From the IMG/VR virus record IMGVR_UViG_3300048591_000195, positions 1 through 60,997 of that record: 60,997 bases of DNA; one strand, 5' to 3'. The position numbers and the translations under genes were made by a program. The notes beneath the pieces were generated by a model. It had not been told where the DNA came from. It ran no database searches and saw nothing but the letters and a program-made list of their open reading frames with translations. Source of the DNA: a virus (taxonomy: Duplodnaviria; Caudoviricetes). Shown piece by piece: positions 3,643 through 58,182 of this stretch (its first letter is position 1; each line of letters begins with the position of its first letter).

Positions 3643-3770
3643 AGGTTAGGTAAATATTCTGTAACTATTCCACTAAATACATGAGCGAAAGTATCCGCTT
3701 CTCTTTTGTCGGTTGTGTAGTAAATCCTCCGGGACTTACCGTTCACAAAGTAGGTGTCATCGTAGTTCAT
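3624..3770 (-). CDS. small hypothetical protein (48 aa)
   Basis: Manual translation MNYDDTYFVNGKSRRIYY...; fills the gap with overlapping start and stop codons. Confidence 0.55.
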   Translation of the reverse strand: MNYDDTYFVNGKSRRIYYTTDKREADTFAHVFSGIVTEYLPNLWRVQI

Positions 3771-4369
3771 TAGTCAATTCCAATAAAAAAGTTTGTTAAT
3801 TCCCCGCTTGGGGGCGAGTCTATTTCCTGTTCCTGTTCTTGTGGTTTTGGCATATCCTGAATGGCCTCAATAAGTTTTTTCATTTCCCCTAAACATATTG
3901 AAAATCCTTTCTTATAGTACCTAAATGCTCTACTCATAGTGCTTGCTGGATACGTGATCTTGTTAACCATTAATTGCCTTTTAGCTAAATCAATAAAGGT
4001 TGTTTCACCAAAGTAGACTTTTTCATTATCCACCGCAAACATCGAAACAGTAAAATCAAAATTATCAATTGTAGCTTGAGGTGTGTCAAAGAACTTTTTA
4101 ACAAGGTCATAAGTTTTGCCTTTGTGTTTTACCTTCATCCCGTTATCACTTTCCCATTTCACCTCAGCGTTTTGTTTTTTGAAATGGTCTTTGGCTTTAT
4201 TGTATTCTACTTCATTCGGGAAAAACAAATCATAATCTGTTTTAATAGCAATTCCCATAAAGTAATCACGTAAAGCTCCACCAGCAAGCCAGCAATTTAT
4301 ACCAGCCTCTTTAAGCTCGGTAAGTATTATTTTACCGTAACGTTCGACTGCATTATCAAGTTGTATCAT
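3770..4369 (-). CDS. nucleotidyltransferase (CCA-adding/poly(A) polymerase head-like, standalone)
   Basis: LAGGALRD...DYDLFF and FDFTV motifs. Confidence 0.8.
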   Translation of the reverse strand: MIQLDNAVERYGKIILTELKEAGINCWLAGGALRDYFMGIAIKTDYDLFFPNEVEYNKAKDHFKKQNAEVKWESDNGMKVKHKGKTYDLVKKFFDTPQATIDNFDFTVSMFAVDNEKVYFGETTFIDLAKRQLMVNKITYPASTMSRAFRYYKKGFSICLGEMKKLIEAIQDMPKPQEQEQEIDSPPSGELTNFFIGID

Positions 4370-4732: not shown

Positions 4733-5257
4733 TCAAGGAACCTCCTTCCAGGTAATTCTATTAATTATTCGTCTAACATTGGTTCTTGATATTTTAAAAG
4801 CAGAAGCAATCGTTTTAATTGAAACACCTTTATCAAAACAAGATCGTATGCAAATAATAGCATCCTTATTGAGTTTTGTATTCCAATGTGACTCACCAAT
4901 AAATGCTTTAAAGTTTTGCGGATTGCCCCTTCTTTTCCATAACTCAGGAGAGCGCTTCAATGAGTGCTGAATATTTTCAGATGGATTAACCCATTGTAAG
5001 TTTGATAAATTATTATTCAATTTATCAGCATCAATATGATTGACTTGTGGTTTGTTTTCAGGATTAGGAATGAATGCCTCGGCCAATATCCTGTGAACTA
5101 AAAAATTAACACTTTTACGATTGGCATCTTTTAAAACAACCGATTCATACCCACTTTTACTTACGTGAGTTTTAATAGGCTTTAAGGATGGGCTTAAAAT
5201 AAGCCCGTCCTTAGTAATTGAATATTCTCTAAAAAAGACTTTCATATCAGGAAACAC
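4733..5257 (-). CDS. HNH homing endonuclease with C-terminal HTH (likely start 5245)
   Basis: VHRILAEAFIPNPENKPQVNHIDADKLNN.LSNLQWV..SENI.H; GESHWNTKL. Confidence 0.92.
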   Translation of the reverse strand: MFPDMKVFFREYSITKDGLILSPSLKPIKTHVSKSGYESVVLKDANRKSVNFLVHRILAEAFIPNPENKPQVNHIDADKLNNNLSNLQWVNPSENIQHSLKRSPELWKRRGNPQNFKAFIGESHWNTKLNKDAIICIRSCFDKGVSIKTIASAFKISRTNVRRIINRITWKEVP

Positions 5258-5423
5258 TCAGGAGATTTGAAATTTCCTCAAGATGCCTAACTGTGTTGGC
5301 AATTGTATTATAATCTACCAGCTTATTTGCTTTTTGATTTTCAAAAGAATCTTCATGGAAATTCTTTAACTTATTAGCTACTGATTGAGCCATTTTTGCG
5401 AGTTGCTTTTTACTCTTTTTCAT
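5247..5423 (-). CDS. small hypothetical protein (58 aa), first gene of the early operon
   Basis: Manual translation MKKSKKQLAKMAQSVANKL...LLSVS*. Confidence 0.6.
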   Translation of the reverse strand: MKKSKKQLAKMAQSVANKLKNFHEDSFENQKANKLVDYNTIANTVRHLEEISNLLSVS

Positions 5424-5476
5424 AATGATCGTTTTTAGTTCGGGGAATCGGCCCCGTCCGTTTGTTGTTGATGATT

Positions 5477-5515
5477 CAAAGTAAAGTATTTTTATTGACT
5501 TTTTAAAATATCCAT
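5477..5515 (-). promoter_or_regulatory. candidate early promoter
   Basis: TTACTTTG, near the TAnnTTTG -7 consensus, at 5484-5477 in an AT-rich intergenic region; the -33 box is weak. Confidence 0.45.
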
Positions 5516-5544
5516 AAAAATATTTTTCAACTTTTTTTCAGGAA

Positions 5545-5575
5545 TTTGGTTTTTAGGCTGTTTTCTGTACTTTTG
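5545..5575 (+). promoter_or_regulatory. Bacteroidota sigma70-type promoter
   Basis: TTTG(5545-48)-N19-TACTTTTG(5568-75), consensus match. Confidence 0.75.
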
Positions 5576-5579
5576 AAAC

Positions 5580-6030
5580 GATTGGGGCTGTCTGTATCTG
5601 TTATGGCATTGGCTAATACAGACACCCCAAAAGCATTAAGAGCCGATTTTTTGAGGATGCCACCGAAAAAAGTCGGCTTTTTGCTGTAATAAGTGGTTCG
5701 TTTACGGGAACGCTAAGCCTCGAACAGCAATAACAGGCAAAAAGCAAACCGGTTGAGATAAACTCAGCCATGAGCCCAGAGGACTCACGGCTGGTATAGG
5801 CAGGTGGATAAAATTCCGGGCAATGTACCAAAGGCGACAACCCGGCCGTAAAAAAATGACTCACCTCATTTCACCTGACCCCGGTACGGATTCCGGATGT
5901 TTATCGTCAGCCCGAACGATTTCGGATGCTAACAGGACAAAGATAATGCTTTTTATTCTTGTCTATCCCTAATCGTTAACCGTAACCTTTGTAATGAGGT
6001 TTTACGGATAGGCCTTAGTGTATCAAGTAA
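5580..6030 (+). ncRNA. candidate large structured non-coding RNA
   Basis: Follows a consensus promoter, contains many inverted repeats and has no credible ORF. Confidence 0.5.
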
Positions 6031-6065
6031 CTAAGATAAAGAATCAAAAAAAGAAGTTCAGATAA

Positions 6066-6101
6066 TAAAAAAAAACCCCGGGACATCTCGTGAACCGGGG
6101 C
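6066..6101 (-). terminator. rho-independent terminator closing the late/lysis operon
   Basis: CCCCGGttcacgagatgtcCCGGGG followed by T9 on the minus strand. Confidence 0.8.
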
Positions 6102-6132
6102 TAAACGCATGACAAAACAAAAAAGCTATCAG
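6066..6132 (-). ncRNA. candidate small RNA ending in an intrinsic terminator
   Basis: TTG-N20-TAGGTTTG promoter at 6168-6138, then CCCCGG..CCGGGG hairpin plus U-tract. Confidence 0.45.
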
Positions 6133-6142
6133 TACGACAAAC

Positions 6143-6658
6143 CTACAACATCAGAACCAATAAAACAACTATCACTGCACCCTCAATAAACACCACCCTG
6201 AAAAGCTGCTTTATTTTCGATTTAAACGCCTTGCGGTCTATATCGTGTATTTCCTTGGCTAACTCGTATTCGCGCTCCCAGCGGCTTATAACAAACAATA
6301 GCGCCTCGTTTTCGCCATCCTTTAACTGGATAGCCCGTGAATGCCCCGAAACAAGGTTATTCAGGTCGGCTATCTGTATAGCCTGCTCCCGCTGCAATGA
6401 ATCACATACCCGACCTTTTCTGACCTCAAAGACCATAGCATCAAAGACTTTTTCAGGCACCGGAAAGCCCTGGCCCTCGCACGTTTGAACTCCAAAAATG
6501 GAGCAAAACAATAACAGAAAAATAATTCCGACTATTACCCGGTCGGTCTTTGTCATTTCCTTTTCGTGCCTTTCTTCATGGAAGTTCATAGAATTGTGGG
6601 TAAAGTTTCCGTAAAATTGAATCCCTTTGCGAATCGGTGTGGTATTGAACCCATACAA
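6143..6658 (-). CDS. putative spanin-like lysis protein (likely start near 6556, MTKTDRV)
   Basis: Hydrophobic signal with Cys, coiled coil and C-terminal hydrophobic tail; adjacent to the TM coiled-coil gene after the endolysin. Confidence 0.55.
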   Translation of the reverse strand: MYGFNTTPIRKGIQFYGNFTHNSMNFHEERHEKEMTKTDRVIVGIIFLLLFCSIFGVQTCEGQGFPVPEKVFDAMVFEVRKGRVCDSLQREQAIQIADLNNLVSGHSRAIQLKDGENEALLFVISRWEREYELAKEIHDIDRKAFKSKIKQLFRVVFIEGAVIVVLLVLML

Positions 6659-47960: not shown

Positions 47961-47993
47961 AGTGCCAATTTATAGGATTTGGGGCTATTTACC

Positions 47994-48030
47994 AAAAAAA
48001 AGAAACCGGAGGGACATCACCCCCTCCGGT
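47994..48030 (-). terminator. rho-independent terminator
   Basis: ACCGGAGGG-ggtgatgt-CCCTCCGGT then TTCTTTTTTTT. Confidence 0.85.
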
Positions 48031-48074
48031 ACTATCAACTAACAAACGGTTGAGCATGGGATGCTCTTGGCGTG
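47994..48074 (-). ncRNA. candidate trans-acting sRNA (about 80 nt)
   Basis: Consensus promoter, 5' hairpin GAGCAT-ccc-ATGCTC, unpaired seed GTTTGTTAGTTGAT and terminator; no ORF. Confidence 0.65.
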
Positions 48075-48079
48075 CGATT

Positions 48080-48111
48080 CAAAACTAAAAAACATACAGT
48101 TAAAAAACAAA
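48080..48111 (-). promoter_or_regulatory. Bacteroidota sigma70-type promoter
   Basis: TTTG(48111-08)-N20-TAGTTTTG(48087-80), consensus match. Confidence 0.78.
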
Positions 48112-55376: not shown

Positions 55377-57503
55377 TTAAAATGGTGGGTCTTCCGGTAA
55401 CGGTGCGTTCATGTTTGGCTTTGCCTGTTTCATCTTTGCGTAATGGTTCTCGTACTTCATTTCAGATTGATGCCCCTTCAATAATGAGCCGTCAATCGGA
55501 CAAACACCATTAAAAAAAAACCTGTTTGTTAATTCATCAAAATGAATCTGATCGAAGTATCCTAACTTTGTCGTTAATTCCTGACTGCGTTGCTTCAATG
55601 TGTAAAAACTGCCTTTCGGGCTATTTGGGTTTATATGCTTCTCATGCCTGTGGTACGAAAATATTCCATCCATTGAATTATCCCAAGCAGAGCCACCCAA
55701 CAAATCATGCTGTGTTACTACCTTATATTCTCCATTAAGTTTTCCGTTCTTTCTCATTCGCCTTTCGTCCATGCTTTTCGGGTGAGCAATTAAGTTTCCG
55801 ACCATATCCGTATCAAGAACCAAATCCTCAAATTCACCAAACACCCTTTCAAGAACCACGTCCTTTGTTGTCTTTCCTTCATCTATCGTTAAGTTCTTCC
55901 ACGGGTCAAGTAAGAATCCATCCGTTCCAAAAGTTTCATATAGGTTTTTAAATCCTTCAATTACTGTTTTTGGTGCCCGGTCTTTGTGAGTATCCAATAC
56001 AAAAAAATGCTGCTCTATCCATAACATCGCAGCCTGATATTCTGCCAAAGTCATTTGATTGCCTTTGTGTTTGTATGGGTTCTTTCCCGTGTACGCATGA
56101 ATCAGAATATTATAAATCTTGTGCGCTGATCTTACCATTCTGCCGTCCGAATTTTTTACCGAATCAATCATTTCAGGACTCCATATCGCCCACTTCCAAT
56201 CGTCAATAACAGACTTCACCAACATCAAGAAAAGCACGAGGCCAGTATTATGTGTTGGAACAAACGATCGGCCTGATAGATACAGATGACTTGGGGAATC
56301 AACCTGAATACATTTTACAGGAACACTATTTATAGGATCACATGAAACAATACTTCTGTACCGACAATTCAATCTTATTTCTTTTGAAAGTCTTTTTTTC
56401 TTTCTTGGTAAAGAGAAAACATCTTTGTTAGTTTTAAAAGTTATTCTATATCGATCCGATGTTTTTCTGCCATATAATTTAGCATCATATTTTTTAGAAT
56501 AACATTTGATGCCTAATGAATTTATCAGTGTATAAACATGGTTAGATAAATTAAAATTTGTACTGGTAAACTCCATATTTCCTGTTTTTGAAGCTGTGCC
56601 GTCAGAATCCATTAACCCCCTTAATAACTCCATTCTATCACTTTCATCACTAAATAAATAAATATCTGGAATATGTTTATTGTGCAGTAATTTCAATTCA
56701 ACCATTTGTTTTCTTACTCCATGAATCGTGAATTCTCCACAGTTTCTATTCCTCTTATCTGGCCTAAAAGTACCAACCTCATAACCTAATGATGTTAATT
56801 TTTGTAAATAAAAATTGTAATCATCAAAAGAGCTTGTTATTGAATTTGTTCTTGAATTTCCATCACCAAGCCATAAACCAATTATATAAGGATGAACAGG
56901 TAAATTATTTTTACTACATTTTATTGGTTTCGCAACAGGAACATAATGTTTATATCTTTTATTACCATTAACATCAATTCTATCGATCAATGTTCGACTA
57001 ATTTCATAAGTAGTGACAATTGATGGTTGTACCATCTTATATGATTGATCGGTTCCTCTTAATTTAAGAGGCCCTCTCCTTTCGTTTCTATATAGGCTAT
57101 TAACAGCATGAGAACTATATGTTTTCCATAAATGATCCTCACAACAAATTTCCTCAGTTCCATCACTAAATGTAATTTTATAGCATCTTTTATTAAACTG
57201 AACTTCGGTTACGAACGTAACATTACATTGATTACCATTTTCATCAAAGACGATATCACCTGCTTTTAAATCCAACATCTTTTTAAACCCGTTTGGAGTT
57301 GGTATTTCTGTATGTATCCACTGAGCTTTCCCGAAACCCGCAAATCCAGTAAACGCATTTAAAAAACCACGCATCCAACTGAATATATTTTCCAAGTCAG
57401 AAATACGGCACTTATCCGCAATCTTTCCTCCCTCCTTAAAATCAACTATTAATCGTGATATGTTTGGAGGTAAGTACCCGCCTATGTTTCCGTTATCTGA
57501 CAT
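55377..57503 (-). CDS. SF4 (DnaB/gp4/Twinkle-like) replicative helicase domain with intein
   Basis: TGFAGFGK|T Walker A split by the intein; WSPE, LLDPW, IAHP, GGSAW.NSMD. Confidence 0.88.
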   Translation of the reverse strand: MSDNGNIGGYLPPNISRLIVDFKEGGKIADKCRISDLENIFSWMRGFLNAFTGFAGFGKAQWIHTEIPTPNGFKKMLDLKAGDIVFDENGNQCNVTFVTEVQFNKRCYKITFSDGTEEICCEDHLWKTYSSHAVNSLYRNERRGPLKLRGTDQSYKMVQPSIVTTYEISRTLIDRIDVNGNKRYKHYVPVAKPIKCSKNNLPVHPYIIGLWLGDGNSRTNSITSSFDDYNFYLQKLTSLGYEVGTFRPDKRNRNCGEFTIHGVRKQMVELKLLHNKHIPDIYLFSDESDRMELLRGLMDSDGTASKTGNMEFTSTNFNLSNHVYTLINSLGIKCYSKKYDAKLYGRKTSDRYRITFKTNKDVFSLPRKKKRLSKEIRLNCRYRSIVSCDPINSVPVKCIQVDSPSHLYLSGRSFVPTHNTGLVLFLMLVKSVIDDWKWAIWSPEMIDSVKNSDGRMVRSAHKIYNILIHAYTGKNPYKHKGNQMTLAEYQAAMLWIEQHFFVLDTHKDRAPKTVIEGFKNLYETFGTDGFLLDPWKNLTIDEGKTTKDVVLERVFGEFEDLVLDTDMVGNLIAHPKSMDERRMRKNGKLNGEYKVVTQHDLLGGSAWDNSMDGIFSYHRHEKHINPNSPKGSFYTLKQRSQELTTKLGYFDQIHFDELTNRFFFNGVCPIDGSLLKGHQSEMKYENHYAKMKQAKPNMNAPLPEDPPF
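56247..57326 (-). mobile_element. class-3-type intein (360 aa) with LAGLIDADG homing endonuclease
   Basis: Starts with Ala (AQWIHTEIPTPNG), ends VPTHN before Thr; DHLW, VKCIQV; GLWLGDG and LRGLMDSDG. Confidence 0.92.
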
Positions 57504-58182
57504 TCAATTCCTCTATTTCTTTTAGTTCCTTTTTGCATTTATCCAGTTGAACAAATACGTCCACAGTATCGTCATAGCAATCCTGATGTATCTTGCTACC
57601 GTATTCAATCAGTTTTCTTTTGATAGCCATTTCAATAACACAACGCGCATGGTATTCTAAGTTTGCAGCACTCGATACCTTTGAGGTTAATTCAGCGATG
57701 TAATGCGCTCCGCCAATCATTTCCAGTTTACCCGACTTTCTTAAGGCCATTACCACAGTACGCATATCAATTGCCATGTTTTCAGCCTTCATTTTTTGTA
57801 GGGTTGAAAATATCTCCTGATGGGCCGGATTGTAAAAGCTATCAGGATTCATAATTAAAAGCACCTTTTCGGTTTGGTCGTTGTTCTCCAACATCAATGC
57901 CCCAAGTATTGCCTCCTCCAAGTCAATCGCCTGCGGGGGTATCTTTCCTAAATCATCACGCTTTTTTATTTCATCTTCATAGGCTCGGAGTAGCTTTTCA
58001 ACTACGTTAATGAATAGGTTATTTTCCTGGATTTTGATTTTAATCTTTTGCGATGGTTCCTTGTATCGTTCCAGTAATTCAACGGAGTTCTTGAATTTCT
58101 TTAAATAGAAACTAACTTCGTCCTTTAAGTCTTGCAGGCGAGGCTTTTGCTTGTACGTTGATGTTTTGTTAGTTGATTGCAT
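57493..58182 (-). CDS. DnaB-like helicase N-terminal-domain protein
   Basis: PPQAIDLEEAILGALM...FY..AHQ.IF...ID..TV...GGAHYIAELT..V.SAAN.EYHA. Confidence 0.9.
   Translation of the reverse strand: MQSTNKTSTYKQKPRLQDLKDEVSFYLKKFKNSVELLERYKEPSQKIKIKIQENNLFINVVEKLLRAYEDEIKKRDDLGKIPPQAIDLEEAILGALMLENNDQTEKVLLIMNPDSFYNPAHQEIFSTLQKMKAENMAIDMRTVVMALRKSGKLEMIGGAHYIAELTSKVSSAANLEYHARCVIEMAIKRKLIEYGSKIHQDCYDDTVDVFVQLDKCKKELKEIEELNVR

What the first reader, a model, noticed from the sequence alone, without database searches (positions are those of the whole stretch)
5545..6030. Only plus-strand transcription unit found: an ORF-less, highly structured RNA of about 450 nt
Seen: a consensus promoter TTTG-N19-TACTTTTG points against all protein genes. 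It is followed by consecutive stems: TTGGGG(C)TGTCTGTAT/ATACAGACACCCCAA (5582-5630), AGCCGATTTTTT/AAAAAAGTCGGCT (5641-5678), AGCCATGAG/CTCACGGCT, CCGG..CCGG, CCGAA/TTCGG, GACAA..ATAA/TTAT..TTGTC and CCGTAA-CCT/AGG-TTTACGG, with an alternative CTATCC/GGATAG pairing. Only a 28-codon ORF is present near the 5' end. The element sits at the late/early junction. Inference: a large ncRNA of a class I do not recognise. Because no primase was found, one testable idea is a ColE1-RNAII-like primer/origin RNA; alternatives are a ribozyme or protein sponge.
Basis: partly seen in the sequence, partly recalled or inferred. Interest (0 to 1): 0.75.

Follow-up and report, generated by a model that had tools for sequence, protein, structure and literature searches.

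The report
Conserved structured noncoding module in phage
A gene-free stretch of about 600 bases between the late and early genes of an uncultured Bacteroidota phage carries a host-type promoter and a tightly folded non-coding RNA, and it recurs almost unchanged in other phage contigs from compost and soil, but the RNA's true length, its strand beyond the first ~105 bases and its function are unproven.

Summary
The described sequence features are real. A full Bacteroidota promoter motif (TTTG-N19-TACTTTTG, 5545-5575) is the only one on the + strand. The listed stems exist. No Rfam family matches.

New evidence: contigs from 4 of 4 laid metagenome runs carry 5428-6031 at about 93-99% identity, with unlike flanks. 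This is therefore a conserved ~600-nt module. Frame-breaking indels in the relatives break every small ORF. In the most divergent relative, 10 changes surround the promoter and none hits its boxes (p about 0.02).

The "one 450-nt RNA" reading is not secured. A 15-bp hairpin plus U-run (5638-5682) looks like an intrinsic terminator and would give a ~105-nt RNA. That 5' domain clearly prefers the + strand. Its two apical loops (UGGCAU and AUGCCA) are perfect complements (47 of 20000 shuffles).

The remaining 345 nt are structured on both strands (z -4.4 and -4.1), so their strand is unresolved. There is no + terminator near 6030.

No distant homologues were found, so covariation could not be tested. 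No RNA data exist. Nothing supports a ColE1-like primer.

The parts
5428..6031 (.). Conserved non-coding module found in other phage contigs with unlike flanks
   Evidence: X8 record 8 covers 5428-6031 with 31 substitutions and 14 gap letters, and both flanks run on unlike. X9 pieces end at 5426 and 6026. The X1 piece starts at 5460 and is interrupted at 6056/6070 by 336 other letters.
5477..5489 (-). Candidate -7-like box (TTTACTTTG on the - strand) of the early operon, whose first ORF starts at 5423. Together with the + promoter it forms a back-to-back divergent pair.
   Evidence: Read from the sequence. It is one base short of TAnnTTTG, so this is inference only.
5545..5575 (+). Bacteroidota sigma-ABfr-type promoter: -33 TTTG, 19-nt spacer, -7 TACTTTTG
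   Evidence: the only full match on +; in X8, 10 changes lie in 5540-5582 and none lies in the boxes (p 0.023, or 0.048 if the two n positions are left out). The consensus is as quoted in PMC7366714 (passages read).
5583..5629 (+). H1, a long 5' hairpin of 18 pairs with apical loop UGGCAU (5604-5609). The RNA would begin at its foot.
   Evidence: -25.5 kcal/mol on + against -21.2 on -, with two U.G pairs in the apical stem. In X8 the change G5611A turns U.G into U-A.
5638..5682 (+). H2, a 15-pair hairpin whose 3' side runs into U5 (5678-5682). It is an intrinsic-terminator-like 3' end for a ~105-nt RNA. Its apical loop is AUGCCA (5657-5662).
   Evidence: -20.6 on + against -12.9 on -, with two G.U pairs; 5582-5686 on + gives -51.6, z -8.3, against -36.9, z -5.6 on -.
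5604..5662 (+). Candidate kissing-loop pair: the H1 loop (5604-5609) is the exact reverse complement of the H2 loop (5657-5662)
   Evidence: 6 of 6 Watson-Crick. Shuffled loops reach 6 in 47 of 20000 trials for this pair, and in 37 of 5000 trials for any pair among the 9 hairpin loops. Both loops are unchanged in X8, X1 and X6 where covered, so there is no covariation.
5687..6031 (.). Conserved structured 'body' whose strand is unresolved
   Evidence: + -108.4 (z -4.41), - -112.3 (z -4.12); 5747-5881 folds better on -, while 5690-5722 and 5913-6010 fold better on +; none of 22 control tiles from other intergenic gaps reaches z -4 (range +1.99 to -3.47). A-rich on + (AT skew +0.12 against -0.10 genome-wide).
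5765..5793 (-). H3, a 13-pair hairpin that is perfect only on the - strand (two G.U there, two A.C on +)
5980..6007 (+). H7, the last hairpin before the conservation boundary. Most differences among relatives lie in its loop and bulge.
6067..6100 (-). Intrinsic terminator (hairpin plus U9) of the late/lysis operon. It lies outside the module and is not followed by U on the + strand.

Best explanation
The finding is a conserved ~600-nt control module (5428-6031) at the point where this one-directional Bacteroidota phage genome ends its late (lysis) genes and begins its early genes.

The module carries two back-to-back promoters. The leftward one serves the early operon. The rightward one (5545-5575) is a full host sigma-ABfr-type promoter. 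It drives a non-coding RNA that starts at about 5581-5583, directly with a long hairpin (H1), and then runs into a second long hairpin plus U-run (H2, 5638-5682).

The most likely main product is therefore a compact RNA of about 105 nt. Its two side-by-side hairpins are of similar height and are clamped by a 6-bp loop-loop contact. The RNA has almost no conserved single-stranded sequence. It probably works by being bound, by a protein or by another copy of itself, rather than through a base-pairing seed.

The next 345 nt (5687-6031) are equally conserved and structured.

Shown: the promoter motif and its conservation pattern, the non-coding nature, conservation with unlike flanks, the + strand preference of the first 105 nt, and the complementary loops. 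Inferred: that it is transcribed at all, where it ends, and what it does.
For: - Promoter: the only full motif on +. Its boxes are untouched amid 10 nearby changes in relative X8. The consensus is documented for the phylum (PMC7366714, passages).
- The only other full-consensus promoter in the genome (48111-48080, - strand) also precedes a hairpin-plus-terminator non-coding unit. In this phage, full-consensus promoters therefore mark small RNAs.
- Non-coding: indels of +5, -1, -1, +2 and others in relatives cut every ORF.
- Conservation: 4 of 4 laid runs from 4 studies hold the module, with flanks that run on unlike.
- In X8, 18 substitutions fall in the 155 nt left of 5583, against 12 in the 449 nt to its right.
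- Strand of the 5' domain: 15 kcal/mol in favour of +, z -8.3. G.U pairs occur in H1 and H2, and there is one G.U to A-U change.
- Loop complementarity is rare in shuffles.
- Variable sites sit at positions with lower predicted pairing: body on +, 0.40 against 0.60 for all sites, p 0.023.
- The host phylum is supported by capsid relatives in Bacteroidota prophages and Polaribacter phages.
Against: - No transcript evidence of any kind.
- No diverged homologues, so no covariation test. The few variants are too close to the reference.
- The motif alone is expected about once per strand by chance.
- The uneven divergence may reflect a recombination breakpoint rather than selection. The X1 relative is identical over 5460-5531 but differs in the body.
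- The generic terminator scan did not list H2.
- If H2 terminates efficiently, the equally strong conservation of the 345-nt body is unexplained by this model.
- The central helices H3 and H4 prefer the - strand.
- The reference lacks 5 nt (after 5716) that both relatives covering that place have, and some substitutions break predicted pairs (5629, 5942, 5935).
Confidence: 0.5

Rival explanations
1. This is one long (~450 nt) + strand structured RNA. H2 is an internal structural hairpin that RNA polymerase reads through. The RNA ends by processing near 6030 and acts as a large ornate RNA, for example a protein scaffold or sponge, or as a replication primer.
For: - The whole of 5576-6031 is ~10 kcal/mol more stable on + in the reference and in two rebuilt natural variants.
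- The body is A-rich on +, the reverse of the genome-wide bias.
- Conservation stops at 6026-6031 in two relatives.
- Body variants avoid + strand paired positions (p 0.023).
- C5738T and T5988C keep G.U or G-C pairs on +.
- The H1-H2 unit has no conserved single-stranded seed, which is more like a domain of a larger fold than a typical sRNA.
Against: - A hairpin plus U5 lies 105 nt from the start.
- There is no + terminator near 6030, so an unprocessed transcript would run on as antisense to the lysis gene.
- The body alone is slightly more stable on -.
- H3 has two A.C mismatches on +.
- The long-range closing helix of the + fold (5711-5719 with 6011-6020) is split by the 5-nt insertion in both relatives.
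- For the primer idea there is no skew change and no DnaA-box enrichment, and replication would run head-on to all genes.
Confidence: 0.25
2. There are two convergent units. One is the ~105-nt + RNA. The other is a - strand RNA, or a long structured leader or insulator, that covers roughly 6031 down to 5640. The two share H2 as a bidirectional terminator.
For: - H3, H4 and the whole 5798-5881 domain fold 4-7 kcal/mol better on -.
- H3's two mismatches on + are exactly the kind that are G.U on -.
- In X8 the changes left of H2 (T5636A and an inserted AA) create a better U-run after H2 on the - strand (read from the sequence).
- A TAnnTTTG match lies on - at 5945-5938 (read).
Against: - There is no full promoter motif on - in or just right of the module.
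- A lone -7 match is expected about 0.2 times in 450 nt by chance.
- H2 is 7.7 kcal/mol weaker on -, and the reference has a poor U-run there.
- 5913-6010 folds better on +.
- The - RNA would be U-rich in its loops.
Confidence: 0.15
3. The element acts as DNA rather than RNA. It could be a replication origin, a recombination or boundary sequence, or a binding region for phage regulators at the genome's control point. On this view the promoter serves only to block read-through or to activate the site.
For: - It is the junction where all transcription starts and ends.
- It is conserved, with gene cassettes swapped on both sides exactly at its edges. The relatives' first early genes start within a few bases of 5426-5428 (loose ends).
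- The mixed strand preference of the hairpins fits a site where neither RNA strand is selected.
- An AT-rich 22-nt imperfect palindrome (5483-5526) lies between the promoters.
Against: - No iterons or direct-repeat families beyond chance.
- DnaA-box-like words are not enriched.
- No skew change.
- G+C content is 0.46 in the body against 0.40 genome-wide, and the hairpins are long, which is atypical of an unwinding region.
- The G.U-containing helices of H1 and H2 point to RNA.
Confidence: 0.1

Closest known systems
Canonical intergenic sRNAs of Bacteroides, e.g. GibS (PMC7366714; passages read)
   Same: It has its own sigma-ABfr-type promoter (TAnnTTTG at -7, TTTG near -33), an intergenic position and a Rho-independent-type 3' hairpin. 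The size, about 100 nt, is similar.
   Different: GibS has a long conserved single-stranded 5' region used for pairing. This RNA starts with a hairpin, and its only linker (5630-5637) varies in relative X8. It is phage-borne. It is followed by 345 nt of further conserved structure.
Phage lambda OOP RNA
   Same: A short phage RNA made from its own promoter against the direction of the neighbouring genes, ending at an intrinsic terminator. It was once suspected of priming replication.
   Different: OOP overlaps and acts as antisense to the end of a coding gene. This RNA overlaps no ORF. No sequence or Rfam relation was found.
ColE1 RNA II primer with RNA I (recalled)
   Same: A structured RNA of several hundred nt from a dedicated promoter in a gene-free region. 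Loop-loop ('kissing') contacts are central in that system.
   Different: There the kissing is between two antisense RNAs, whereas here the complementary loops lie in one RNA. No origin signature is present, transcription would run head-on to all genes, and no Rfam match was found.
Large ornate phage-associated RNAs GOLLD and ROOL (PMC12286853; search listing and abstract only)
   Same: Large, highly structured, ORF-free RNAs of unknown function, often carried by phages.
   Different: No covariance-model match. At most ~450 nt. There are no tRNA genes nearby (0 in the window). The known distribution is narrow.
phi29 packaging RNA (pRNA; recalled)
   Different: No Rfam match, a different phage type (HK97-fold capsid, large terminase of the usual kind), and no evidence of any packaging role.

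Membership tests
Canonical promoter-to-terminator intergenic sRNA (Bacteroidota) | Cognate host promoter directly upstream | tested here: met
   Full TTTG-N19-TAnnTTTG at 5545-5575. Its boxes are unchanged in a relative with 10 nearby changes.
Canonical promoter-to-terminator intergenic sRNA (Bacteroidota) | Rho-independent terminator at the 3' end | tested here: inconclusive
   A 15-pair hairpin (-20.6 kcal/mol) running into U5 at 5678-5682. The simple scan did not list it, and part of the U-run pairs with an upstream A-rich stretch.
Canonical promoter-to-terminator intergenic sRNA (Bacteroidota) | Detected transcript with defined 5' and 3' ends | not testable with these tools
   No RNA run holds the stretch. 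This says nothing either way.
Canonical promoter-to-terminator intergenic sRNA (Bacteroidota) | Conserved single-stranded seed with targets | tested here: not met
   The only linker (5630-5637) carries 1 substitution and a 2-nt insertion in X8, and the closing A5629 also changes. Exact 11-mer or longer matches to the rest of the genome number 15, against about 13 expected.
ColE1 RNA II-type replication primer | Transcription towards an origin, with RNA-DNA hybrid formation and an antisense RNA I | not testable with these tools
   Indirect checks only. No skew change, no DnaA-box enrichment, no Rfam match to any plasmid copy-control RNA.
Any described RNA family in Rfam 15 (by my recollection these include GOLLD, ROOL, HEARO/omega RNA, pRNA, group I/II introns, small ribozymes, 6S and tmRNA) | Covariance-model score at or above the gathering threshold | tested here: not met
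   0 of 4227 families in the whole window. At E up to 10 there were 7 matches on 851 nt, the best 20.4 bits against a threshold of 70, and 1 match on 349 nt, 17.4 bits against 100. ARAGORN found 0 tRNA or tmRNA genes.
HEARO / omega-RNA of IscB-TnpB nucleases | Adjacent IscB or TnpB gene on the same strand | tested here: not met
   The neighbouring nuclease (4733-5257) is a 174-aa HNH_3 plus HTH homing-type protein. The relatives have other first genes at that edge.
Structured RNA supported by covariation | Compensatory changes in diverged homologues | tested here: inconclusive
   Only variants at 93-99% identity are known. Three changes keep pairs through G.U (5611, 5738, 5988) and several break predicted pairs. 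No diverged homologue was found in 6 pattern scans, 17 cousin records by blastn, or 364422 bases by covariance model.

The most novel reading that the evidence does not exclude
The whole of 5582-6031 is one ~450-nt phage RNA of a class not yet described. The RNA is made by host polymerase against the flow of every phage gene, at the genome's single control point. It acts as a scaffold or decoy for a host or phage protein, or as the primer for replication in a phage with no recognisable primase.
Probability: 0.15. Interest if true: 0.75.

Novelty: new member of a known kind. Interest (0 to 1): 0.45.

Why it matters
Very little is known about non-coding RNAs of phages that infect Bacteroidota. 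This module is a clean candidate for three reasons:
- It is the only unit on its strand in a genome where everything else points the other way.
- It has a textbook host promoter.
- Nature has kept it nearly unchanged while swapping the genes on both sides.

If the RNA is made, it is probably part of the early/late control of a widespread group of soil and compost phages, whose capsid relatives occur as prophages in several Bacteroidota genera.

The fully complementary apical loops give a simple, testable structural hypothesis. If the long form exists, it would add a new large structured RNA to a very short list.

As it stands, the case rests on sequence anatomy and on a handful of close variants. 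It is a good lead, not a discovery.

Tried and rejected
1. Homologue hunts.
- blastn against 50,697 phage records gave no match.
- The exact 20-mer from the most conserved hairpin gave 0 hits in viral contigs and 0 in metagenome contigs. A 25-mer gave 0 in genome contigs.
- An 18-mer gave 55 metagenome stretches and another 18-mer gave 11 genome stretches. 0 of these 66 extends beyond 26 nt by blastn.
- A 17-mer gave 32 viral stretches, and 0 of 32 extends beyond 25 nt.

2. Synteny route.
- The 171-aa right neighbour has no relative other than itself among 5.8 billion proteins. It has none in viral contigs or in phage records.
- The endolysin has none in viral contigs.
- The large terminase has only 3 relatives, at 33-34% identity. 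The element is absent from those 3 records.

3. Cousin phages.
- The capsid alignment A1 brought 27 loci.
- blastn of the element against 17 records gave only 11-29-nt matches, best E 0.0076, in the AT-rich promoter part.
- Five cousin records were fetched whole. Their long gaps hold nothing alike. One G+C-rich gap in G006 reads like coding sequence.
- Covariance model R1 of the 105-nt domain matched only itself, plus two weak - strand matches inside the same element, in 364,422 bases from 42 sources.

4. Expression. No RNA holder was listed among 21 runs. This is no evidence either way.

6. Targets. Exact repeats of 11 nt or more between the element and the rest of the genome number 15, against about 13 expected.

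7. Motif mimic. UCAAGUAAC at 6023-6031 resembles the recurrent UCAACUAAC start-site motif. However, one-mismatch matches are common (24 found against 16 expected), so this was dropped.

8. Long-range pairings 5577-5587/5967-5977 and 5629-5638/5944-5953 are broken by changes in the relatives and were rejected.

9. Origin signs. There is no GC-skew turn and no DnaA-box enrichment.

10. The genome-wide fold scan covered only the first 17.3 kb of the + strand: 172 windows of 200 nt with 20 shuffles each. Element windows ranked 1st and 3rd. The 2nd (5101-5300) lies in the neighbouring genes.

11. Supplements of papers were not opened.

Full report
**Context.** The window is a whole IMG/VR virus record: 60997 nt, linear, with CheckV completeness 74%.
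- Every non-nested ORF of 90 aa or more lies on the - strand.
- To the right of the finding lie lysis genes: an endolysin at 7798-8433, a spanin-like ORF, and a 171-aa ORF that ends at 6143. A - strand terminator follows at 6100-6067.
- To the left the - strand genes begin at 5423. They are a 58-aa ORF, an HNH_3 plus HTH homing-type endonuclease, a PolyA_pol-head nucleotidyltransferase, YopX and an ERF recombinase.
- The 'late/early junction' is therefore a fair description.
- The capsid protein has 55-72% identical relatives in Bacteroidota prophages. Names given by the sources include Flagellimonas, Sunxiuqinia, Winogradskyella and Polaribacter. Its relatives in cultured Polaribacter phages are 40% identical. 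This fits the Bacteroidota promoter type.

**Observation.**
- The promoter motif TTTG-N19-TACTTTTG is at 5545-5575. It is the only full match on the + strand, where a shuffled genome gives about one. The motif counts only together with its place, inside the single ~700-nt gene-free gap.
- The consensus itself (TAnnTTTG at -7, TTTG near -33, for sigma-ABfr) is quoted in PMC7366714 (passages read).
- The region folds far better than shuffles. For 5576-6095, + gives -167.5 kcal/mol, z -6.3, with 0 of 100 shuffles as good, and - gives z -4.66.
- Rfam gives nothing: 0 of 4227 families at gathering and only far-sub-threshold noise at E up to 10. There are no tRNA or tmRNA genes.

**Conservation (new).**
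- A k-mer search found 19 DNA runs from 9 studies (compost, soil, invertebrate gut and others) that hold parts of the stretch. None is on record as RNA.
- I laid four runs from four studies. In X8 one 1551-nt contig matches 5428-6031 with 31 substitutions and 14 gap letters, and it runs on unlike on both sides. In X9, pieces end at 5426 and 6026. In X1 a piece starts at 5460, and 336 other letters replace 6057-6069. X6 holds two short identical or near-identical pieces.
- The loose ends show that in three relatives a different first gene starts within a few bases of the left edge.
- The unit that is kept is therefore 5428-6031.
- Indels in the relatives cut every ORF listed above, so the region is non-coding. 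The indels are +5 after 5716, -1 at 5850, -1 at 5891, +2 after 5637, and others.
- In X8, 18 substitutions fall in the 155 nt left of 5583 and only 12 in the 449 nt to its right.
- Of 10 changes in 5540-5582, none touches the -33 or -7 boxes (p 0.023, or 0.048 without the two n positions).
- This looks like a live promoter in front of a constrained product. X1, however, is identical on the left and different in the body, so recombination also shapes the pattern.

**The first 105 nt.**
- Directly after the promoter come H1 (5583-5629) and H2 (5638-5682).
- H2 is a 15-pair hairpin whose 3' side runs into U5. That is the shape of an intrinsic terminator.
- This domain clearly prefers the + strand: -51.6 against -36.9 kcal/mol, z -8.3 against -5.6.
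- Both hairpins contain G.U pairs, and one of them becomes A-U in X8.
- In the minimum-energy fold, the apical loop of H1 is UGGCAU and that of H2 is AUGCCA. These are exact complements. Shuffled loops reach this in 47 of 20000 trials for the pair, and in 37 of 5000 trials for any pair among the nine loops.
- The two hairpins are of similar height and are joined by 8 nt, so a contact within one molecule is geometrically plausible, and a contact between molecules is also possible (inference).
- The linker varies in X8, so there is no conserved seed. No target repeats beyond chance occur in the phage.
- The only other full-consensus promoter of the genome (48111-48080, - strand) also precedes a hairpin, a seed-like stretch and a terminator. 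This supports reading such units as small RNAs.

**The remaining 345 nt.**
- 5687-6031 is as conserved as the first part and is structured: z -4.41 on + and -4.12 on -. None of 22 control tiles from other intergenic gaps goes below -3.47.
- The strand is not resolved. For +: the whole element is ~10 kcal/mol better on + in the reference and in two rebuilt variants; the body is A-rich on +; 5690-5722 and 5913-6010 fold better on +; variant sites avoid + paired positions (0.40 against 0.60, p 0.023).
- For -: 5747-5881 folds 4-7 kcal/mol better on -, and the 13-pair hairpin 5765-5793 has two A.C mismatches on + that are G.U on -. On the whole element, variant sites avoid - paired positions slightly more.
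- There is no + terminator near 6030.
- The long-range closing helix of the + fold is split by the 5 nt that both relatives have and the reference lacks.

**Homologues.**
- Six exact-pattern scans of three collections gave nothing that extends beyond the probe.
- The flanking proteins have no useful relatives.
- 17 cousin phage records, with capsid identity 48-66%, hold no similar DNA.
- A covariance model of the 105-nt domain found only itself in 364,422 bases.
- The family is so far confined to close relatives seen in Logan contigs, which I could read only as difference tables. Covariation could not be tested.

**Mechanism.**
- I commit to the following, at about 0.5: a conserved control module whose rightward host-type promoter makes a compact ~105-nt, kissing-loop-clamped RNA. 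The downstream 345 nt is a read-through extension or a separate element.
- Its likely mode is to be bound, by a protein or by itself, rather than seed pairing.
- A role in separating late from early transcription at the one junction of a one-directional genome is plausible but is inference only.
- Rivals: the single 450-nt RNA (0.25), of which the ColE1-like primer is a small part; convergent + and - RNAs that share H2 (0.15); a DNA-level site (0.10).
- For the primer idea I found no skew change, no DnaA-box enrichment and an unfavourable head-on direction. No primase domain was seen in the 10 replication-region proteins scanned, but a quarter of the genome may be missing.

**Novelty and score.**
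- Phage small RNAs with their own promoter and terminator are a known kind, and so are large phage-borne structured RNAs. This one matches no described family, so I rate it a new member of a known kind.
- Two literature searches turned up no description of such an element in Bacteroidota phages. They were keyword searches of open-access text and cannot show absence.
- Interest is 0.45. It is a well-formed and testable lead with real conservation, but it has no expression data, no covariation and a narrow known range.

Noticed in passing
window 47990-48111 (- strand): The only full-consensus promoter on the - strand (48111-48080) precedes an ~80-nt unit made of a hairpin, GUUAGUUGA and a terminator. 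That 9-mer is the exact complement of UCAACUAAC. UCAACUAAC lies 10-25 nt before the start codons of many early and middle genes: there are 9 exact copies in the window, 8 of them in mRNA sense, where about 0.2 per strand would be expected. This is a strong candidate for a multi-target phage sRNA.
   Followed up: partly
window 55377-58182 (- strand): The replicative helicase appears to be in two ORFs. A 229-aa ORF carries the DnaB N-terminal domain (57493-58182). A 708-aa ORF is a DnaB-like ATPase that also contains a LAGLIDADG homing-endonuclease domain at residues ~282-359, which is intein-like.
   Followed up: partly
window 3770-4369 and 4733-5257 (- strand): A 199-aa PolyA_pol-head nucleotidyltransferase and a 174-aa HNH_3 plus HTH homing-type endonuclease lie just downstream of the module in the early operon. 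No link to the RNA was found. The relatives have other genes at that edge.
   Followed up: partly
window 6056-6070: In one relative (run X1), 336 other letters replace 13 nt between the module and the late-operon terminator (table 5). Their content could not be read.
   Followed up: no
window 5716/5717: The reference lacks 5 nt (GCCAC) that both relatives covering the place have. In those relatives, CCAC can pair with GUGG at 5693-5696 to close a local hairpin. The reference may therefore be the derived, slightly damaged copy.
   Followed up: partly
window 5101-5300 (+ strand): In the partial fold scan this 200-nt window scored second best of 172 (z -4.40, 20 shuffles). It spans the end of the 58-aa ORF and the start of the HNH gene.
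   Followed up: no
window 5483-5526: An AT-rich imperfect palindrome (22-nt arms, 82% complementary, no spacer) lies between the two divergent promoters. It might be an operator, but the changes in X8 do not keep the symmetry.
   Followed up: partly
I confirmed the TAGGTTTG box and the terminator in the sequence. The stretch 6070-6253 is kept in relative X1 with 3 differences.
   Followed up: partly
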